From a virus (taxonomy: Duplodnaviria > Caudoviricetes), in IMG/VR virus record IMGVR_UViG_3300025127_000148, positions 1 to 31,075 of that record: DNA of 31,075 bases; one strand, 5' to 3'. The translations under genes and the position numbers were made by a program. Below are positions 232 through 6,247 of this stretch, piece after piece. A model generated the notes under the pieces. It was not told the DNA's origin. It ran no database searches and saw nothing but the letters and a program-made list of their open reading frames with translations. Numbering within the stretch: position 1 is the first letter of the stretch; each line of letters begins with the position of its first letter.

Positions 232-410
232 TACTTATATCCTCCACCTGCAGCTTTGTATCTTTTAGCTAGCATCTGGGCTTTTCTTGCTGACCATTGT
301 CCAGGCTTTCCGCCCTTTGATCCAGCCATGATAGAGTTAAACATACGTTTTCTCATACCAGGTTTAGTATAGTTGCCTGCTTTATTTACTGTGCTTTTTT
401 TCTTCGCCAT
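231..410 (-). CDS. 59-aa basic protein with GSKGGKPGQWSARKAQ motif (recalled as DUF5872-like)
   Basis: Hand translation MAKKKSTVNKAGNYTKPGMRKRMFNSIMAGSKGGKPGQWSARKAQMLAKRYKAAGGGYK; AAGGAG upstream; 29-nt overlap with the 382..1050 gene. Family name is from memory. Confidence 0.85.
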   Translation of the reverse strand: MAKKKSTVNKAGNYTKPGMRKRMFNSIMAGSKGGKPGQWSARKAQMLAKRYKAAGGGYK

Positions 411-1050
411 CTTTTATCTCCTTATAATCATAATCATAACTGCCTTCTTCATTTTCATCAGTTATCCATTTTGATGTGTCTTCCACAGACCATATCCTAG
501 TATTAACTAATCTATGGATGAGAGGTTTGCTTGGATCTGCTGCCATAGAAGGATCAAAGATCCTTAGTCTATTGTTGGGTTGAATTGCGTAATTACCATC
601 ATCTAATTCTATTACATGGCCACACTTATGTTGATCTGGTTTTTCTGCATAACCAAAATCTAGCTCATTGTAGTCACCAGCACACCAATCAATTGTAAAT
701 AAGTATGTACCTTCTCGTTGTTTCTTTCTTCTAGAAGTATATATCATTTTACAACCTTGTAATTGATAAAATCTAGTGACACTTATGTTGTAACTAAAAG
801 AATCCCATAACATTAATTCATTTAGTGGTAGTTCTTTTACACCAGGTTTTTTACAAAATGCTGATATAGGTGCTCTCCACCATATACCACCATCTGTCAT
901 CATGTAGTGAAACAAAGGTACTTGTTTAGGGATAGATGTAAAACCAAATACCACACATTCAAAGTATTTATCGTGTGAATCTTTTTGATCCCTAAGAAAG
1001 TTACCACGAACATAACATTCTATTGGTGGGATATTAGCGTTAAGATACAT
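382..1050 (-). CDS. Conserved phage hypothetical protein, 222 aa, soluble and aromatic-rich
   Basis: Long ORF coupled by TAATG at 1050; motifs YLNANIPP, HKCGH and QPNNR recalled from marine phage hypothetical proteins. Confidence 0.85.
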   Translation of the reverse strand: MYLNANIPPIECYVRGNFLRDQKDSHDKYFECVVFGFTSIPKQVPLFHYMMTDGGIWWRAPISAFCKKPGVKELPLNELMLWDSFSYNISVTRFYQLQGCKMIYTSRRKKQREGTYLFTIDWCAGDYNELDFGYAEKPDQHKCGHVIELDDGNYAIQPNNRLRIFDPSMAADPSKPLIHRLVNTRIWSVEDTSKWITDENEEGSYDYDYKEIKDGEEKKHSK

Positions 1051-1376
1051 TAGTTAGCTAAAGGGTTAGAAGATTTAATTTTAATTTCTTCTATCTGTAT
1101 TTTTAATAATTCTATTTCTTTTTCAACTATTTTTACAGATGAATTATCATGTGTATGGTCAAAGTCATGACTGTGAGAAGTATCTTTATTCTCTAGTGCT
1201 GTAACTTTTTCTTCTAATACAGCTATTTCTGCTGACCAATCTTTACCACCAGATGCTCCCTCTAATGCATCTAGTTTAGTTACAATCTCACCATACTTTA
1301 CAAAGCCACCACCTATTGCTGCAATAACTCCAAGTAATGCTGCTACACCTGCTAGTTGATTTTTTATTTTATCCAT
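1050..1376 (-). CDS. Membrane-anchored coiled-coil protein with His-rich insert
   Basis: N-terminal TM LAGVAALLGVIAAIGGGFV; heptad segments IAVLEEKVTALE and IELLKIQIEEI; SHSHDFDHTH between them. Confidence 0.85.
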   Translation of the reverse strand: MDKIKNQLAGVAALLGVIAAIGGGFVKYGEIVTKLDALEGASGGKDWSAEIAVLEEKVTALENKDTSHSHDFDHTHDNSSVKIVEKEIELLKIQIEEIKIKSSNPLAN

Positions 1377-2745
1377 TTTTTAATTGCTCCAGTTCTATTA
1401 GTATTTGTTTCTTTTTAATATCTATTTGATTTAGTTTATCATTTACAATTGCTATAGGATCTGTAGATATATAACTACTTAAATTTTTATCAGTATATAA
1501 TTGTCTTAAATCCTGTATTTGTATTTGATCTAAATAAATATTTTCACTTTTATAGAAGGGTACGTCATAAACATCAAGAGACACTTGGCTACTTGCCATA
1601 GCATCTAACTTAATAATATTTTTAATTTGTAAATTCTTTGAAATATCTTTAATATCTTTATCAACTTTGTCCATAATTTTTACTAGATTAGCTTTGATTG
1701 TTTCTTTCGATTGTATATTTTTTTGCTTTGAATTACTTTCATTCTTAACTTCGGCAGTCTTAGTAGTTTTGCTATTGGGTTCTTCTTCTTTTTCATTAGG
1801 TTCCTCTGCCATTTTTGTAGGTGCTTCTTCTATTATTTCCTCTTCTGTAAATTCTTCTTCAATTGTTTCCTCTTCCATTACTTCTTCTTCAATCATAGAT
1901 TCTTCTTCCATAACTAATTCTTCCATGATTTCTTCTTCCATAATTTCCTCTTCCATTGGCATTTCTTCAACAGCCATTAGAACAGGTTCAAAACTAATCT
2001 CTTCAAATTCTTCTGCTACTTCTAAAGTAGGCTCTTCAAAAAAAGTTATTAACTCTTCAAATAATTCTTCAATAGCTACAAATTCTAATTCTTCAAATAC
2101 TTCTTCAATGTTTTCAAATGCTTCTTCTATTTCTTGCACGATAGAAGTTTCTATGACTGCGTCATCATATGTCATAGTTACAGATATATTATCTACATTA
2201 GGACCACCTAAAGTTGCAGGTGCATTAGCATCTGTTGCAGATATATTTATATTACCTGTATAAGATCCTTCACCATTATAAATTAATCTATCTGTAAAAT
2301 TAGCACCTTCGATACCTGTTGTATCAGTTCTAATTGTAGTATTTGATGCTAATATATTACCTTCTTCATCTTTAATAGTTAATACATTTGTAAATGTATC
2401 AGCATCACCTGACCCACCCCAACACCCAGTGACATTGCACTCGCCATTTTGTACTTCAATTGTTGAATCTAATGTAATACCATTATCCAACATATTTTGT
2501 GTAATAGTATCGGAACTTAAATCAAAGTCTTGATTAATAGAACCACTATCACCAAACTCTAAATCATAATTACTAGGAACATTATTTAATTCACAGCAAT
2601 CATTTAATACTTGTACATCACCAGAGGTAGTCCAACTATTCGCATTACCAGTTTCAAAGTTACCATTGGTAATTAAATTACCTGTAGTTATCTCTTCAGC
2701 ATTTACAACAGTAAATAAAAATAAAAAAGCTATTAACCATTTCAT
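1369..2745 (-). CDS. Exported protein: signal peptide, CBM/galactose-binding-like beta-sandwich, Glu-rich linker, C-terminal helical domain
   Basis: MKWLIAFLFLFTVVNA-EE signal peptide; NLITNGNFETG...W and VDNISV motifs typical of CBM4/9-like jelly rolls; four Cys; long EEExx tract. Confidence 0.85.
   Translation of the reverse strand: MKWLIAFLFLFTVVNAEEITTGNLITNGNFETGNANSWTTSGDVQVLNDCCELNNVPSNYDLEFGDSGSINQDFDLSSDTITQNMLDNGITLDSTIEVQNGECNVTGCWGGSGDADTFTNVLTIKDEEGNILASNTTIRTDTTGIEGANFTDRLIYNGEGSYTGNINISATDANAPATLGGPNVDNISVTMTYDDAVIETSIVQEIEEAFENIEEVFEELEFVAIEELFEELITFFEEPTLEVAEEFEEISFEPVLMAVEEMPMEEEIMEEEIMEELVMEEESMIEEEVMEEETIEEEFTEEEIIEEAPTKMAEEPNEKEEEPNSKTTKTAEVKNESNSKQKNIQSKETIKANLVKIMDKVDKDIKDISKNLQIKNIIKLDAMASSQVSLDVYDVPFYKSENIYLDQIQIQDLRQLYTDKNLSSYISTDPIAIVNDKLNQIDIKKKQILIELEQLKNG
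1822..1968 (-). repeat. Degenerate 15-bp (5-codon) tandem repeat encoding an (EEExx)n acidic tract
   Basis: Protein reads MEEEIMEEEIMEELVMEEESMIEEEVMEEETIEEEFTEEEIIEEA; plus strand shows recurring ttcttcttccat/ttcctcttccat units. Confidence 0.8.
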
Positions 2746-2954
2746 TCTAATATAAGTTTTTTAATTGACTTTGATCCGTCTATGTTAGATTCTAACTCAG
2801 CCATTGATTTTATACATTGATATTGTACTGATTTTTTTGAAGTTCTCATTGCAACTCTTTTTCCTTTGAGACAGTTGGACATAGACTCTTGTATTCTATG
2901 TTCTTTAATTTCTCCGTTGACAATCATAAGTAGGGCTATAATTAACTCTGGCAT
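2742..2954 (-). CDS. 70-aa hypothetical protein with hydrophobic N-terminus and two Cys
   Basis: TAATG coupling at 2954 and ATGA at 2742-2745; GGAG upstream; LIIALLMIV stretch; SNCLKGKR...YQCIK. Confidence 0.8.
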   Translation of the reverse strand: MPELIIALLMIVNGEIKEHRIQESMSNCLKGKRVAMRTSKKSVQYQCIKSMAELESNIDGSKSIKKLILE

Positions 2955-3328
2955 TAGTGTGCTCCATTTGCTCTAACTTTATCTTTTAATACTTCAATAT
3001 CTTTTAGTGCTTTATCTAATTGATCTCTTAAAAATTCTATATTGACTTTGTTAGTCATATTCATCTCTTGAGTCTCTTCCATTTTTTCTACTGACTTATA
3101 GAGATCTTCTAGTAAAAAATGCTGCTCTTGGTCCACAGGTACTTGTTCAGATTTTTTAAGCAAATCATTTTCAAATAATTCTCTTGATGTCTCTAGAGAT
3201 ACTAGCCTTGCAGTTAATTCTGTATATGCAAATACACCAGCTGCAACTAAAACTATCAATGAGGCAACTGTTTTCATCGGCATCTGCACAGCTGCTTGTT
3301 CCGATATTTTTAAAGGTTTGTTACTCAT
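2954..3328 (-). CDS. Single-TM coiled-coil protein, 124 aa
   Basis: TM TVASLIVLVAAGVFAY followed by long heptad-rich helices; overlaps neighbours on both sides. Confidence 0.85.
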   Translation of the reverse strand: MSNKPLKISEQAAVQMPMKTVASLIVLVAAGVFAYTELTARLVSLETSRELFENDLLKKSEQVPVDQEQHFLLEDLYKSVEKMEETQEMNMTNKVNIEFLRDQLDKALKDIEVLKDKVRANGAH

Positions 3329-3419
3329 CTTTCTTTTTATTTTTTTTAAATAATTTATCTATCCAAGATGTCATTATATCTAATAAATCACAAAATTTAT
3401 ATATGTATTTATCTATCAT
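3321..3419 (-). CDS. 32-aa amphipathic peptide
   Basis: Hand translation MIDKYIYKFCDLLDIMTSWIDKLFKKNKKKDE; ATGA overlap at 3416-3419 and 8-nt overlap with the next gene, exactly filling the gap. Confidence 0.7.
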   Translation of the reverse strand: MIDKYIYKFCDLLDIMTSWIDKLFKKNKKKDE

Positions 3420-4105
3420 TTAGGTGCTGACCAATTTTTTAATTTTTCAATTCTCTCTTTTTCTTCTTCTGCTGCTATTTTTTCTTGTTCTATTTTTTCA
3501 AATTCTTTTTGCATTGCTAATTCTTCTGCTTCATCTTTTTTCTTTCTATCTTCCATACGTTTTACATATGTATCATAGTCTGGTCTTTCATGATCATATT
3601 TAGACCATAGGGCCTCTGCTTCTTTACCTATTTTACCATCAATAGGACAAGGTGTACCTGCTTGTATCATAGATTCAAATACTCTTTCATCTTGACAAAG
3701 TATAGCAACAGCTGCAACTTTCATACCAAAGTCATTTAATATTCTAGCTAACTTTAGTCTTTCACAATTTTTGTCTATTGCATGCTTACCACCACTAATA
3801 CCTATACCAAAAGTTTGAACACCTAATGATACCCCAACTGCACAAACATCTTGTGTCATACTATTGTATGATGGCGCACCTGCACTTGGTGGAGCTGATC
3901 TAATATTAGAATTAGTTGTATTATTAGTAGTGCTATTAGAACTAGATCCAGATTGATAAGTTGTTGTAGCAGTAGATGTATATCCACCTTCAATAGCAGT
4001 ATTAGATCCAGACGTATTAGTCTGAGTTGATCCTGCTATAGCTGCAGTTGTTACACATGCAGATATTATTAATAATGTTAATATTAGTATTAGAGGGTTT
4101 TTCAT
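3416..4105 (-). CDS. Exported (possibly lipo-) protein with Ser/Thr/Asn-rich linker and four-Cys domain
   Basis: Signal MKNPLILILTLLIISAC (lipobox-like ISAC, also a possible AIA-G SPase I site); S/T/N tract; APPSA.AP...DVC...NCERLKL...GMKVAAVAILCQD...AGTPCP; charged C-terminal helix. Confidence 0.88.
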   Translation of the reverse strand: MKNPLILILTLLIISACVTTAAIAGSTQTNTSGSNTAIEGGYTSTATTTYQSGSSSNSTTNNTTNSNIRSAPPSAGAPSYNSMTQDVCAVGVSLGVQTFGIGISGGKHAIDKNCERLKLARILNDFGMKVAAVAILCQDERVFESMIQAGTPCPIDGKIGKEAEALWSKYDHERPDYDTYVKRMEDRKKKDEAEELAMQKEFEKIEQEKIAAEEEKERIEKLKNWSAPK

Positions 4106-4107
4106 AT

Positions 4108-4332
4108 TTAAGTATCTTGTTCTTGTGCTTCGTCTTCATAACATGCAAATTTAATATATAATCTATTAGAGTTAACTTGTAACTCTCCTATTTCTTCTAA
4201 TTTAATTAACGATTCTGTATATCCTGTTTTTAAACATTCATATTCGCTATCAAATTGTGTAGGGTAAATATATGGTGGTATGCAAGAATCAACTATATAT
4301 GAACACAGTATAAGTGCTAAACTAAATTTCAT
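4108..4332 (-). CDS. 74-aa hypothetical protein with hydrophobic N-terminus and four Cys
   Basis: MKFSLALILCSYIVDSC...YECLKTGY...IKFAC; TAATG coupling at 4332. Confidence 0.8.
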   Translation of the reverse strand: MKFSLALILCSYIVDSCIPPYIYPTQFDSEYECLKTGYTESLIKLEEIGELQVNSNRLYIKFACYEDEAQEQDT

Positions 4333-4478
4333 TAAGCCCCATTAAAAGAGTCTTCATCTAACTCTTTATTAGGTGCGCATTTACAATTTTCGCATGTGCA
4401 TACACCATATTCATCTGCATGAAGATCTCCATCGCAGTGACATTCGTGATGACATTTCTTACAAATATTTTTTTTCAT
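4332..4478 (-). CDS. 48-aa Cys/His-rich metallothionein-like peptide
   Basis: Hand translation MKKNICKKCHHECHCDGDLHADEYGVCTCENCKCAPNKELDEDSFNGA: 8 Cys and 4 His; ATGA coupling upstream, TAATG downstream, AGGA before the start. Confidence 0.8.
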   Translation of the reverse strand: MKKNICKKCHHECHCDGDLHADEYGVCTCENCKCAPNKELDEDSFNGA

Positions 4479-4552
4479 TTATATCCTGGTTCTAAAAATA
4501 ATGCCATTAATACTAGTAATATAATTAGAACACCTGTGAAGTAATAATTCAT
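4475..4552 (-). CDS. 25-aa single-TM micropeptide
   Basis: Hand translation MNYYFTGVLIILLVLMALFLEPGYK; GGGGT SD-like motif upstream; its stop overlaps the next start (ATGA). Confidence 0.65.
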   Translation of the reverse strand: MNYYFTGVLIILLVLMALFLEPGYK

Positions 4553-5345: not shown

Positions 5346-5561
5346 TTAATAAAATAAACCTATTAATGTTAGTATTGTTGCTCCAAGGCCACCTAGTATT
5401 ACATAGATTATCTTGTCTATCTTACCATGTAGCTTATCTATATCCTCATGTATATGTTTAAGGTGATTATTTTTTATTGAACTTACTTCCCTTTTTAATC
5501 CTGTGATATATCCATATATTGATATAAGGTGTTCACTGGTTGTTTTGGGTTGTTTAGCCAT
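5346..5561 (-). CDS. Coiled-coil plus C-terminal TM protein (XhlA/holin-accessory-like architecture)
   Basis: IKNNHLKHIHEDIDKLHGKIDK coil followed by IIYVILGGLGATILTLIGLFY; TAATG-coupled to the muramidase. Confidence 0.7.
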   Translation of the reverse strand: MAKQPKTTSEHLISIYGYITGLKREVSSIKNNHLKHIHEDIDKLHGKIDKIIYVILGGLGATILTLIGLFY

Positions 5562-6247
5562 TAATTTTCTAAATCTGAAAGTAAACTTGGAAATAAATAT
5601 TCAGCTTCTCTTTTTCTTCTAGAACCATATCTATCACCAAAATTTAATAAATTATTATATGCTTCTTGCCATTGATTATTAGTTGCCTGTCTCCAAAAAT
5701 TAGGTGTTTTCGTTTGTAAATTACCATATTGAAAAGCTACTGATGCAAGGACTGTTGCTTTTTCTTTTGATAAATCATTAAATGAAGTCTTTGTAGTTGT
5801 TTCCCATGCATTTCTAAGATTTTTAACAGCCTCTTTTTTAGCAAATTCATTTATAATTTTAGCTTGTTTTTCAGTAACATTTAAAGTATTATTATTTAAA
5901 AAATTTTCTGCTTCTTCACCTTTTAAACCTAAATATGGTTTAAGTGTTTTCACAATATCTTCTGGTAATCCTTGTAAATCATTTTCATCTCTAGCACCAA
6001 GATCAAAACCACTTGCAATAGTTACGCCAGATTTAGAACTTTTTGCATCAGGAACATAACCTTTTGTTTCAAAACCTTCTTGCTCTAATATAAAATCAAA
6101 ATCTATATTTTTACTTTCACCTAACATTTGATCAGTTTGCTGATTAACATTAGATTTTTCTTTAGATGTAATTAAATTTTCTGTTTCAGCGTTTACATTA
6201 CTACTCATAATTAATATTATTAATATTGTTAATTTAATTTTTACCAA
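5561..6247 (-). CDS. Pesticin C-terminal-like (T4 lysozyme fold) muramidase, putative endolysin
   Basis: IDFDFILEQEG..GYVP....SGVTIASGFDLG, LKPYLGLKG, TVLASVAFQYG, PNFW, FGDRYGSRRKREA match the pesticin muramidase family; TTG start at 6247 is uncertain. Confidence 0.85.
   Translation of the reverse strand: MVKIKLTILIILIMSSNVNAETENLITSKEKSNVNQQTDQMLGESKNIDFDFILEQEGFETKGYVPDAKSSKSGVTIASGFDLGARDENDLQGLPEDIVKTLKPYLGLKGEEAENFLNNNTLNVTEKQAKIINEFAKKEAVKNLRNAWETTTKTSFNDLSKEKATVLASVAFQYGNLQTKTPNFWRQATNNQWQEAYNNLLNFGDRYGSRRKREAEYLFPSLLSDLEN

What the first reader, a model, noticed from the sequence alone, without database searches (positions are those of the whole stretch)
1050..4552. Translationally coupled module of exported and membrane proteins: candidate undescribed phage envelope complex
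Seen: nine consecutive genes (25, 48, 74, 229, 32, 124, 70, 458, 108 aa) joined by overlaps or a 2-nt gap, downstream of the muramidase and holin-like genes. They include two clear signal-peptide proteins, two TM plus coiled-coil proteins, small hydrophobic-leader proteins with even Cys counts, a CBM-like domain and a long acidic linker. Established: podophage virion proteins are not Sec-exported, and Gram-negative lysis normally needs spanins, of which I see no canonical Rz/Rz1 pair. Inference: a stoichiometric periplasm-spanning machine built in the infected cell, such as a non-canonical outer-membrane disruption system, a receptor-masking/superinfection-exclusion complex, or an uptake or adhesion device.
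Basis: partly seen in the sequence, partly recalled or inferred. Interest (0 to 1): 0.8.

Follow-up and report, generated by a model that had tools for sequence, protein, structure and literature searches.

The report
Widespread phage envelope-spanning protein trio
The nine genes are not one unit: three of them form a gene trio found together in hundreds of aquatic phage genome fragments and matching no characterised family, which likely builds a bridge from the inner to the outer membrane of the infected cell and would hold a sugar-binding protein at its surface, while the other six travel separately.

Summary
The nine ORFs and their tight junctions are real, but tight packing is usual in this SAR11-type podophage genome and runs past the stated end. 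Comparison across related loci splits the block. (1) A trio: 229 aa (exported, lipobox in this clade, Cys-bracketed amphipathic beta-hairpin), 458 aa (exported, swappable head, acidic stalk), 108 aa (inner-membrane anchor, coiled coil, C-terminal NPL). An NPL-ended anchor follows the 229-aa gene in 232 of 251 loci (upstream control 0 of 144), in podo- and myophages of several hosts; one clade adds three more exported genes (48 of 48). (2) A separate 124+70 aa pair (114 of 117), common in cultured pelagiphages, with divergence unrelated to the trio. (3) Four passengers. The 229-aa core has 1,140 sequence clusters, a confident model and no Pfam or solved-structure match. Best reading: a trans-envelope anchor with an outer-membrane hairpin ring that displays the 458-aa protein (0.45); main rival: a non-canonical spanin (0.3; endolysin nearby in 85 of 176 loci).

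The parts
3416..4105 (-). Trio gene 1 (229 aa): exported protein, lipobox at Cys17 in this clade, Ser/Thr/Asn-rich segment, Cys88-Cys114 bracketed amphipathic beta-hairpin, small helical domain, charged C-terminal helix; inferred outer-membrane ring subunit
   Evidence: only PHROG 20531 (unknown function)
1369..2745 (-). Trio gene 2 (458 aa): signal peptide, CBM-like head (about 17-195), acidic stalk (196-325), helical C-terminal domain; inferred displayed or periplasmic cargo
   Evidence: 40 full-length window-like relatives span 446-620 aa
1050..1376 (-). Trio gene 3 (108 aa): N-terminal TM helix, coiled coil, invariant C-terminal NPL; inferred inner-membrane strut
   Evidence: N104, P105, L106 invariant in 35 sequences
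2954..3328 (-). Pair gene 1 (124 aa): TM helix plus coiled coil, no Cys; separate unit, i-spanin-like topology
   Evidence: (45 phage records, 40 named Pelagibacter phage); PHROG 20984 unknown
2742..2954 (-). Pair gene 2 (70 aa): two conserved Cys, short acidic-hydrophobic N-terminus, no lipobox
   Evidence: follows the 124-aa gene in 114 of 117 loci; Spearman 0.84 with 124; PHROG 24646 unknown
4475..4552 (-). 25-aa free-standing copy of the leader peptide that other phages fuse to the 229-aa family and to an alternative hairpin protein; likely a relic
   Evidence: (profile hits 61 ORFs that are also 229-aa homologues)
4332..4478 (-). 48-aa Cys/His-rich peptide without leader; passenger, metallothionein-like by recalled resemblance
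   Evidence: no Pfam hit
4108..4332 (-). 74-aa four-Cys protein; passenger, often elsewhere on the opposite strand
   Evidence: opposite strand in 12 of 29 loci; PHROG 19893 unknown
3321..3419 (-). 32-aa amphipathic peptide with basic tail; passenger, present or absent
5561..6247 (-). Context: pesticin-type muramidase upstream

Best explanation
The 229-, 458- and 108-aa genes form a conserved trio that likely builds a trans-envelope anchor in the infected cell: the 229-aa protein would oligomerise so that its hairpins form a small outer-membrane barrel, the 108-aa coiled coil would reach up from the inner membrane and dock by its NPL tip, and the 458-aa protein would be held by its C-terminal domain with its swappable, likely glycan-binding head out on a long acidic stalk. 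Shown: gene linkage and order, signal and TM features, the hairpin pattern and model, head swapping, stalk and coiled-coil length variation. Inferred: oligomerisation, membrane insertion, binding among the three, surface exposure, and purpose (adhesion of the infected cell or masking of surface glycans against competing phages). The 124+70 pair is a separate unit and the four small genes are passengers.
For: NPL-ended TM protein within 3.6 kb downstream of the 229-aa homologue in 232 of 251 loci against 0 of 144 upstream; seen in pelagiphages HTVC033P, 023P, 202P, Baldr, 115P, myophage Mosig, Roseobacter phages CRP-207/CRP-810 and a freshwater podophage. Hairpin: positions 96, 101, 103 hydrophobic in 95-99% and 93, 102, 104, 106 Gly/Ser/Thr in 82-98% of 136 sequences, charged residues at most 6% at any of 90-106; the model places two strands at 89-97 and 102-110 on a helical base (mean pLDDT 83.5, hairpin about 66-73). 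Lipobox in 19 window-like sequences; a short lipoprotein paralogue of the helical base lies upstream in 33 of 71 CRP-207-like loci. The middle gene has a signal-type N-terminus in the clade examples read, and its head changes between clades (CBM-like, Cys-rich, helical, other beta). One clade adds three further exported genes between middle gene and anchor (48 of 48). The trio is dispensable and has no endolysin found nearby in two clades (1 of 25 and 0 of 38).
Against: An endolysin lies within 2.5 kb in 85 of 176 loci, of four unrelated families, which favours a lysis role. Within the window-like clade the trio's divergence correlations (0.27-0.42) are no higher than with the flanking 222-aa gene (0.17-0.47). 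The window's 108-aa family links to the other NPL families only weakly by profile (E 3e-4 to 0.12), and middle-gene C-termini are detectably homologous only between two clades. Only 31 of 315 homologues show a lipobox. In the HTVC115P-like clade 37 of 46 homologues end in a TM helix, which a pure outer-membrane ring does not need. The CBM call is sub-threshold. The loci come from a few query-driven sets and are not independent.
Confidence: 0.45

Rival explanations
1. The trio is a non-canonical spanin system: the 108-aa protein acts as i-spanin, the 229-aa lipoprotein or hairpin protein as the outer-membrane partner, and the 458-aa protein ties the complex to the wall until the endolysin frees it to fuse or rupture the membranes.
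For: Topology matches an inner-membrane coiled coil meeting an outer-membrane lipoprotein by its C-terminus (PMC6139136 passages). Endolysin within 2.5 kb in 38 of 38 freshwater-type and 30 of 36 six-gene loci; families T4 lysozyme-like, GH19, M15, GH108. Signal plus beta region plus C-terminal TM in 37 of 46 HTVC115P-like homologues recalls u-spanin layout. Five of six cultured pelagiphages with the 229-aa gene lack a 124-aa hit, as if the two units were alternatives.
Against: Gene order is reversed relative to Rz/Rz1 and a large exported gene intervenes; lysis linkage was found in only 1 of 25 and 0 of 38 loci of two clades; trio and pair co-occur in 19 of 29 window-like loci; three extra exported genes in one clade have no place in a spanin.
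Confidence: 0.3
2. The trio is a periplasmic superinfection-exclusion or lysis-delay tether: nothing is displayed outside, and the complex stiffens the envelope or blocks DNA entry of competing phages.
For: Accessory distribution, position interchangeable with a different hairpin-plus-coiled-coil pair (both never together in 62 loci), exported non-enzymatic proteins.
Against: Location among late and lysis genes fits exclusion poorly (own knowledge: exclusion genes are usually early or lysogenic); swappable heads on long stalks fit an outward-facing role better (inference).
Confidence: 0.12
3. The 124+70 pair is the actual outer-membrane disruption device of pelagiphages, or a virion accessory, independent of the trio.
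For: Present in 40 Pelagibacter phage records of several genome types, tightly paired (114 of 117; Spearman 0.84), i-spanin-like topology of the 124-aa protein.
Against: The 70-aa protein has no lipobox or clear signal peptide; several cultured pelagiphages have no hit.
Confidence: 0.25
4. All nine proteins form one stoichiometric complex.
For: Tight junctions.
Against: Independent assortment and uncorrelated divergence; the 48-aa and 32-aa peptides lack leaders.
Confidence: 0.03

Closest known systems
Two-component spanins (lambda Rz/Rz1, T4 PseT.3/PseT.2)
   Same: Type II inner-membrane coiled coil of variable length with a conserved C-terminal tip; a lipoprotein partner; frequent position beside holin and endolysin.
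   Different: Partner gene lies upstream, not nested or directly after; partner has a hairpin domain and usually no lipobox; a large exported third gene with swappable head; no PHROG spanin hit.
Unimolecular spanin (T1 gp11)
   Same: One clade of the 229-aa family has N-terminal signal, beta region and C-terminal TM helix.
   Different: The window's protein has no C-terminal TM (0 of 48 window-like homologues); it comes with two partner genes.
Curli/T8SS secretion channel CsgG-CsgF, including the pelagiphage T8SS cluster (PMC9599517)
   Same: A phage-borne export or display system for SAR11 cells, moved between phage families; CsgG is an outer-membrane lipoprotein that builds a barrel from hairpins (recalled).
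   Different: No Pfam match to CsgG, CsgF or curlin in the trio; an inner-membrane coiled-coil partner; different gene set.
Chaperone-usher pili
   Same: The six-gene version holds a 163-174 aa and a 107-130 aa exported beta-rich protein that recall a pilin and a chaperone (recalled resemblance only).
   Different: No usher-sized gene; no profile or PDB sequence match; fold model too poor to test; these genes are absent from the window.

Membership tests
Two-component spanin | Type II inner-membrane protein with periplasmic helices | tested here: met
   108 aa and 124 aa: single N-terminal TM by hydropathy, then coiled-coil-type sequence; sequence-level only
Two-component spanin | Outer-membrane lipoprotein partner with lipobox | tested here: inconclusive
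   229 aa has a lipobox, as do 18 close relatives, but only 31 of 315 homologues overall; an SPI-like site follows it; 70 aa has none
Two-component spanin | o-spanin gene embedded in, overlapping or directly after the i-spanin gene | tested here: not met
   No lipoprotein-like ORF in or after the 124- or 108-aa genes in any frame; 229 lies upstream
Two-component spanin | C-terminal binding of the two subunits and rescue of Rz/Rz1 lysis defect | not testable with these tools
   Complex prediction unavailable; rescue needs bench work
Unimolecular spanin | N-terminal lipobox plus C-terminal TM helix in one protein | tested here: not met
   No C-terminal TM in 0 of 48 window-like homologues; present in 37 of 46 HTVC115P-like ones
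Curli T8SS (CsgG/CsgF) | Pfam CsgG, CsgF or curlin domains | tested here: not met
   No such hit for the nine proteins or for 107 members of the 229-aa alignment
Curli T8SS (CsgG/CsgF) | CsgG-like fold | tested here: inconclusive
   Wide fold search of the core model: best Z 2.8, none at 5 or more; absence does not exclude it
Chaperone-usher pilus (six-gene relatives) | Ig-like pilin and chaperone folds | tested here: inconclusive
   No PDB or Pfam match; model pLDDT 39
Chaperone-usher pilus (six-gene relatives) | Large usher barrel gene in the operon | tested here: not met
   All six genes are about 100-305 aa
CBM_4_9 / galactose-binding-like domain (458-aa head) | Profile match above cut-off | tested here: inconclusive
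   13.7 bits against cut-off 25.9, residues 22-44 only; no PDB match better than E 0.22
Disruptin (phiKT gp28 type) for the 32-aa peptide | Cationic amphipathic peptide that rescues spanin defect | not tested
   Amphipathic, basic-tailed by sequence; no comparison run

The most novel reading that the evidence does not exclude
Aquatic phages of several families carry an undescribed, usher-free export and display system built from a self-assembling disulfide-clamped hairpin ring and an inner-membrane NPL strut, ranging from a three-gene adhesin version (this window) to a six-gene pilus-like version, used to remodel the surface of infected SAR11, Roseobacter and freshwater cells.
Probability: 0.35. 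Interest if true: 0.85.

Novelty: categorically new. Interest (0 to 1): 0.68.

Why it matters
SAR11 phages are among the most abundant viruses in the sea, and my searches found no account of how they breach or remodel the outer membrane. A large, mostly phage-borne family (1,140 clusters at 50% identity) with a fixed three-gene layout gives a defined, testable candidate. Either outcome is new: a phage-built surface display device affecting aggregation or competition of infected cells, or a further class of outer-membrane disruption system. Cultured phages carrying it (HTVC033P, HTVC023P, HTVC202P, Mosig, CRP-207) make it directly testable.

Tried and rejected
Nine-gene unit: rejected. Translational coupling as evidence: rejected, genome-wide. 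Pfam/PHROG for the nine: only unknown-function PHROGs. PDB by sequence for 229 core, pilin-like, chaperone-like and 458 head: nothing significant. ESM Atlas: only hypothetical viral clusters, no named hit. Fold search of the 229 core: no match at Z 5 or more among 48,161 chains, hairpin barely tested; Foldseek against PDB was never accepted. Model of the pilin-like relative failed (pLDDT 39) and was not searched. Complex prediction: not available, no verdict. Homology of 70 aa to 74 aa, and of the second and third hairpin families to the 229 core: not detected. Cellular origin: beyond the two centre genomes, 1 of 400 sampled alphaproteobacterial and 0 of 399 gammaproteobacterial genomes matched, one more not scored. 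RNA runs: two small-share holders kept as contigs, transcription not shown. Literature: six searches listed no paper describing this trio; subscription journals are mostly not covered. Earlier scan findings: none.
Full report
Setting. The window is a whole 31-kb phage record with portal, capsid and tail genes on the minus strand. The closest cultured match to its first 6.3 kb is Pelagibacter phage HTVC033P (59% covered, 79% identity), and 50 of 73 matching records are Pelagibacter phages; a SAR11 host is inferred from this.

Observation. The nine ORFs exist as stated and all eight junctions are overlaps or a 2-nt gap. This is not distinctive: 18 of the other 32 junctions examined are as tight, and the chain continues through genes of 222, 59, 35 and 41 aa. 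The 48-aa and 32-aa peptides have no hydrophobic leader. No protein matches a characterised family; four match unknown-function PHROGs.

The block splits. Gene maps of 172 loci plus the window show two linked units and passengers. The 124-aa gene is followed by the 70-aa gene in 114 of 117 loci with enough flank, yet only 5 of 29 loci fetched with the 124-aa query carry the 229-aa gene. Among 29 window-like loci fetched with the 229-aa query, 19 carry the 124-aa gene, 13 the 74-aa gene adjacent, 14 the 48-aa and 14 the 32-aa. In 27 dereplicated loci holding both units, pairwise divergence of 124 and 70 correlates at 0.84, but with the trio at -0.01 to 0.10. Among cultured phage records the 124-aa gene has 45 hits, the 229-aa 13 and the 458-aa 5. 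The 25-aa ORF is a free copy of the leader that other phages fuse to the 229-aa family.

The trio. I fetched further loci with three distant 229-aa homologues and one genome scan. Of 251 loci with a homologue and at least 2.6 kb downstream, 232 have a 70-300 aa protein with an N-terminal TM helix and NP[LIMF] in its last 12 residues within 3.6 kb downstream; the same test upstream gives 0 of 144. These loci come from a few query-driven sets and are not independent. Between the two lies an exported gene whose head differs by clade: CBM-like in the window and HTVC115P types (profile probability 94% between them), Cys-rich in a freshwater type, helical in a Roseobacter-phage type. Its stalk is 42% acidic in the window, and 40 full-length relatives span 446-620 aa. 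The NPL proteins span 79-274 aa; links among clades are strong for some pairs and weak for the window's family. A fifth clade inserts three more exported genes, giving a six-gene operon complete in 48 of 48 loci with enough flank. Two of the additions recall a pilin and a chaperone; that resemblance is recalled and was not confirmed. Against my reading, the trio's internal divergence correlations (0.27-0.42) do not exceed those with the flanking 222-aa gene (0.17-0.47).

The 229-aa core. It has 1,140 relatives at E 0.001 or better among 50%-identity clusters and is rare in sampled cellular genomes; the one extra cellular hit has an Asn-rich N-terminus and no trio in the 2 kb read. In 136 diverse sequences Cys88 and Cys114 bracket an uncharged segment with alternating hydrophobic and Gly/Ser/Thr positions. 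AlphaFold2 models it as two nine-residue strands on a confident helical base (mean pLDDT 83.5; hairpin about 66-73). No solved chain matches by sequence or at Z 5 or more by fold. Such a hairpin is what one subunit contributes to an oligomeric membrane barrel (own knowledge; CsgG and pore-forming proteins). Nineteen window-like sequences keep a lipobox; a short lipoprotein paralogue of the helical base precedes the gene in 33 of 71 Roseobacter-phage-type loci; 37 of 46 HTVC115P-like homologues instead end in a TM helix. Different anchors on one domain point to an envelope location but do not fix which membrane takes the hairpin.

Mechanism. I commit to a trans-envelope anchor that displays the 458-aa protein (0.45). 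Shown: linkage, order, export and TM features, hairpin, head swapping. Inferred: ring formation, binding of the NPL tip, surface exposure and purpose. The main rival is a non-canonical spanin (0.3): an endolysin lies within 2.5 kb in 85 of 176 loci, from four unrelated families, though in only 1 of 25 and 0 of 38 loci of two clades (eight query proteins, so a floor). Five of six cultured pelagiphages with the 229-aa gene lack a 124-aa hit, and a different hairpin protein with its own TM coiled-coil neighbour takes the trio's place in Skadi-type and HTVC027P phages, never together with it in 62 loci.

Comparison with known systems. Spanin features are taken from passages of PMC6139136. The trio meets the i-spanin topology, fails the gene-arrangement test and is inconclusive for the lipoprotein test. 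The pelagiphage curli cluster (PMC9599517, abstract and passages) is a precedent for a phage-borne secretion system in SAR11 phages but shares no Pfam domain with the trio. Extra lysis factors and spanin-free lysis are known (10.1101/2024.01.23.576932, abstract; 10.1101/515445, search listing). Six searches listed no description of this trio; the library lacks most subscription papers and I read no supplements, where these genes may be tabulated.

Verdict. The nine-gene complex is not real as a unit. Inside it lies a widespread, apparently undescribed three-gene envelope system of unproven function, plus a separate near pan-pelagiphage pair. Interest 0.68.

Noticed in passing
L424:5068-8631, L425:5242-8908, L176:3607-6740 and L428-L507: Six-gene version of the trio with pilin-like, chaperone-like and second Cys-bracketed hairpin genes, often directly before a 3TM holin and a GH19 or GH108 endolysin.
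   Followed up: partly
L093:5273-6155; Skadi phages and HTVC027P: An alternative pair (99-aa TM coiled coil plus about 190-aa exported Cys-bracketed hairpin protein with the same leader as the 25-aa ORF) stands before the 124+70 pair and was never found together with the 229-aa gene in 62 loci.
   Followed up: partly
window 4332-4478: 48-aa Cys/His-rich peptide conserved in many pelagiphage loci, metallothionein-like by recalled resemblance; no Pfam hit.
   Followed up: partly
window 1683-1796 (minus strand, inside the 458-aa gene, other frame): A 37-aa basic ORF matches PHROG 20887 (E 2.5e-4) and weakly DUF7230; possible nested gene or remnant.
   Followed up: no
window 1050-1376: The 108-aa coiled coil is interrupted by a His-rich stretch of variable length in its relatives; possible metal site or flexible hinge.
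   Followed up: no
L258:3895-4107 and relatives: About 70-aa lipoprotein homologous to the helical base of the 229-aa family but lacking the hairpin, overlapping the start of the full gene.
   Followed up: partly
window 382-1050: 222-aa gene (PHROG 3704, labelled ferredoxin; annotated PurM in HTVC023P) sits either before or after the trio in most window-like loci; the labels conflict.
   Followed up: no
window 5561-6247: The pesticin-type muramidase had no homologue in the other 172 loci mapped; relatives have other genes at this position.
   Followed up: no
L419:988-2046: A cellular-looking alphaproteobacterial homologue of the 229-aa core with long Asn-rich repeats before it and no trio in the stretch read.
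   Followed up: no
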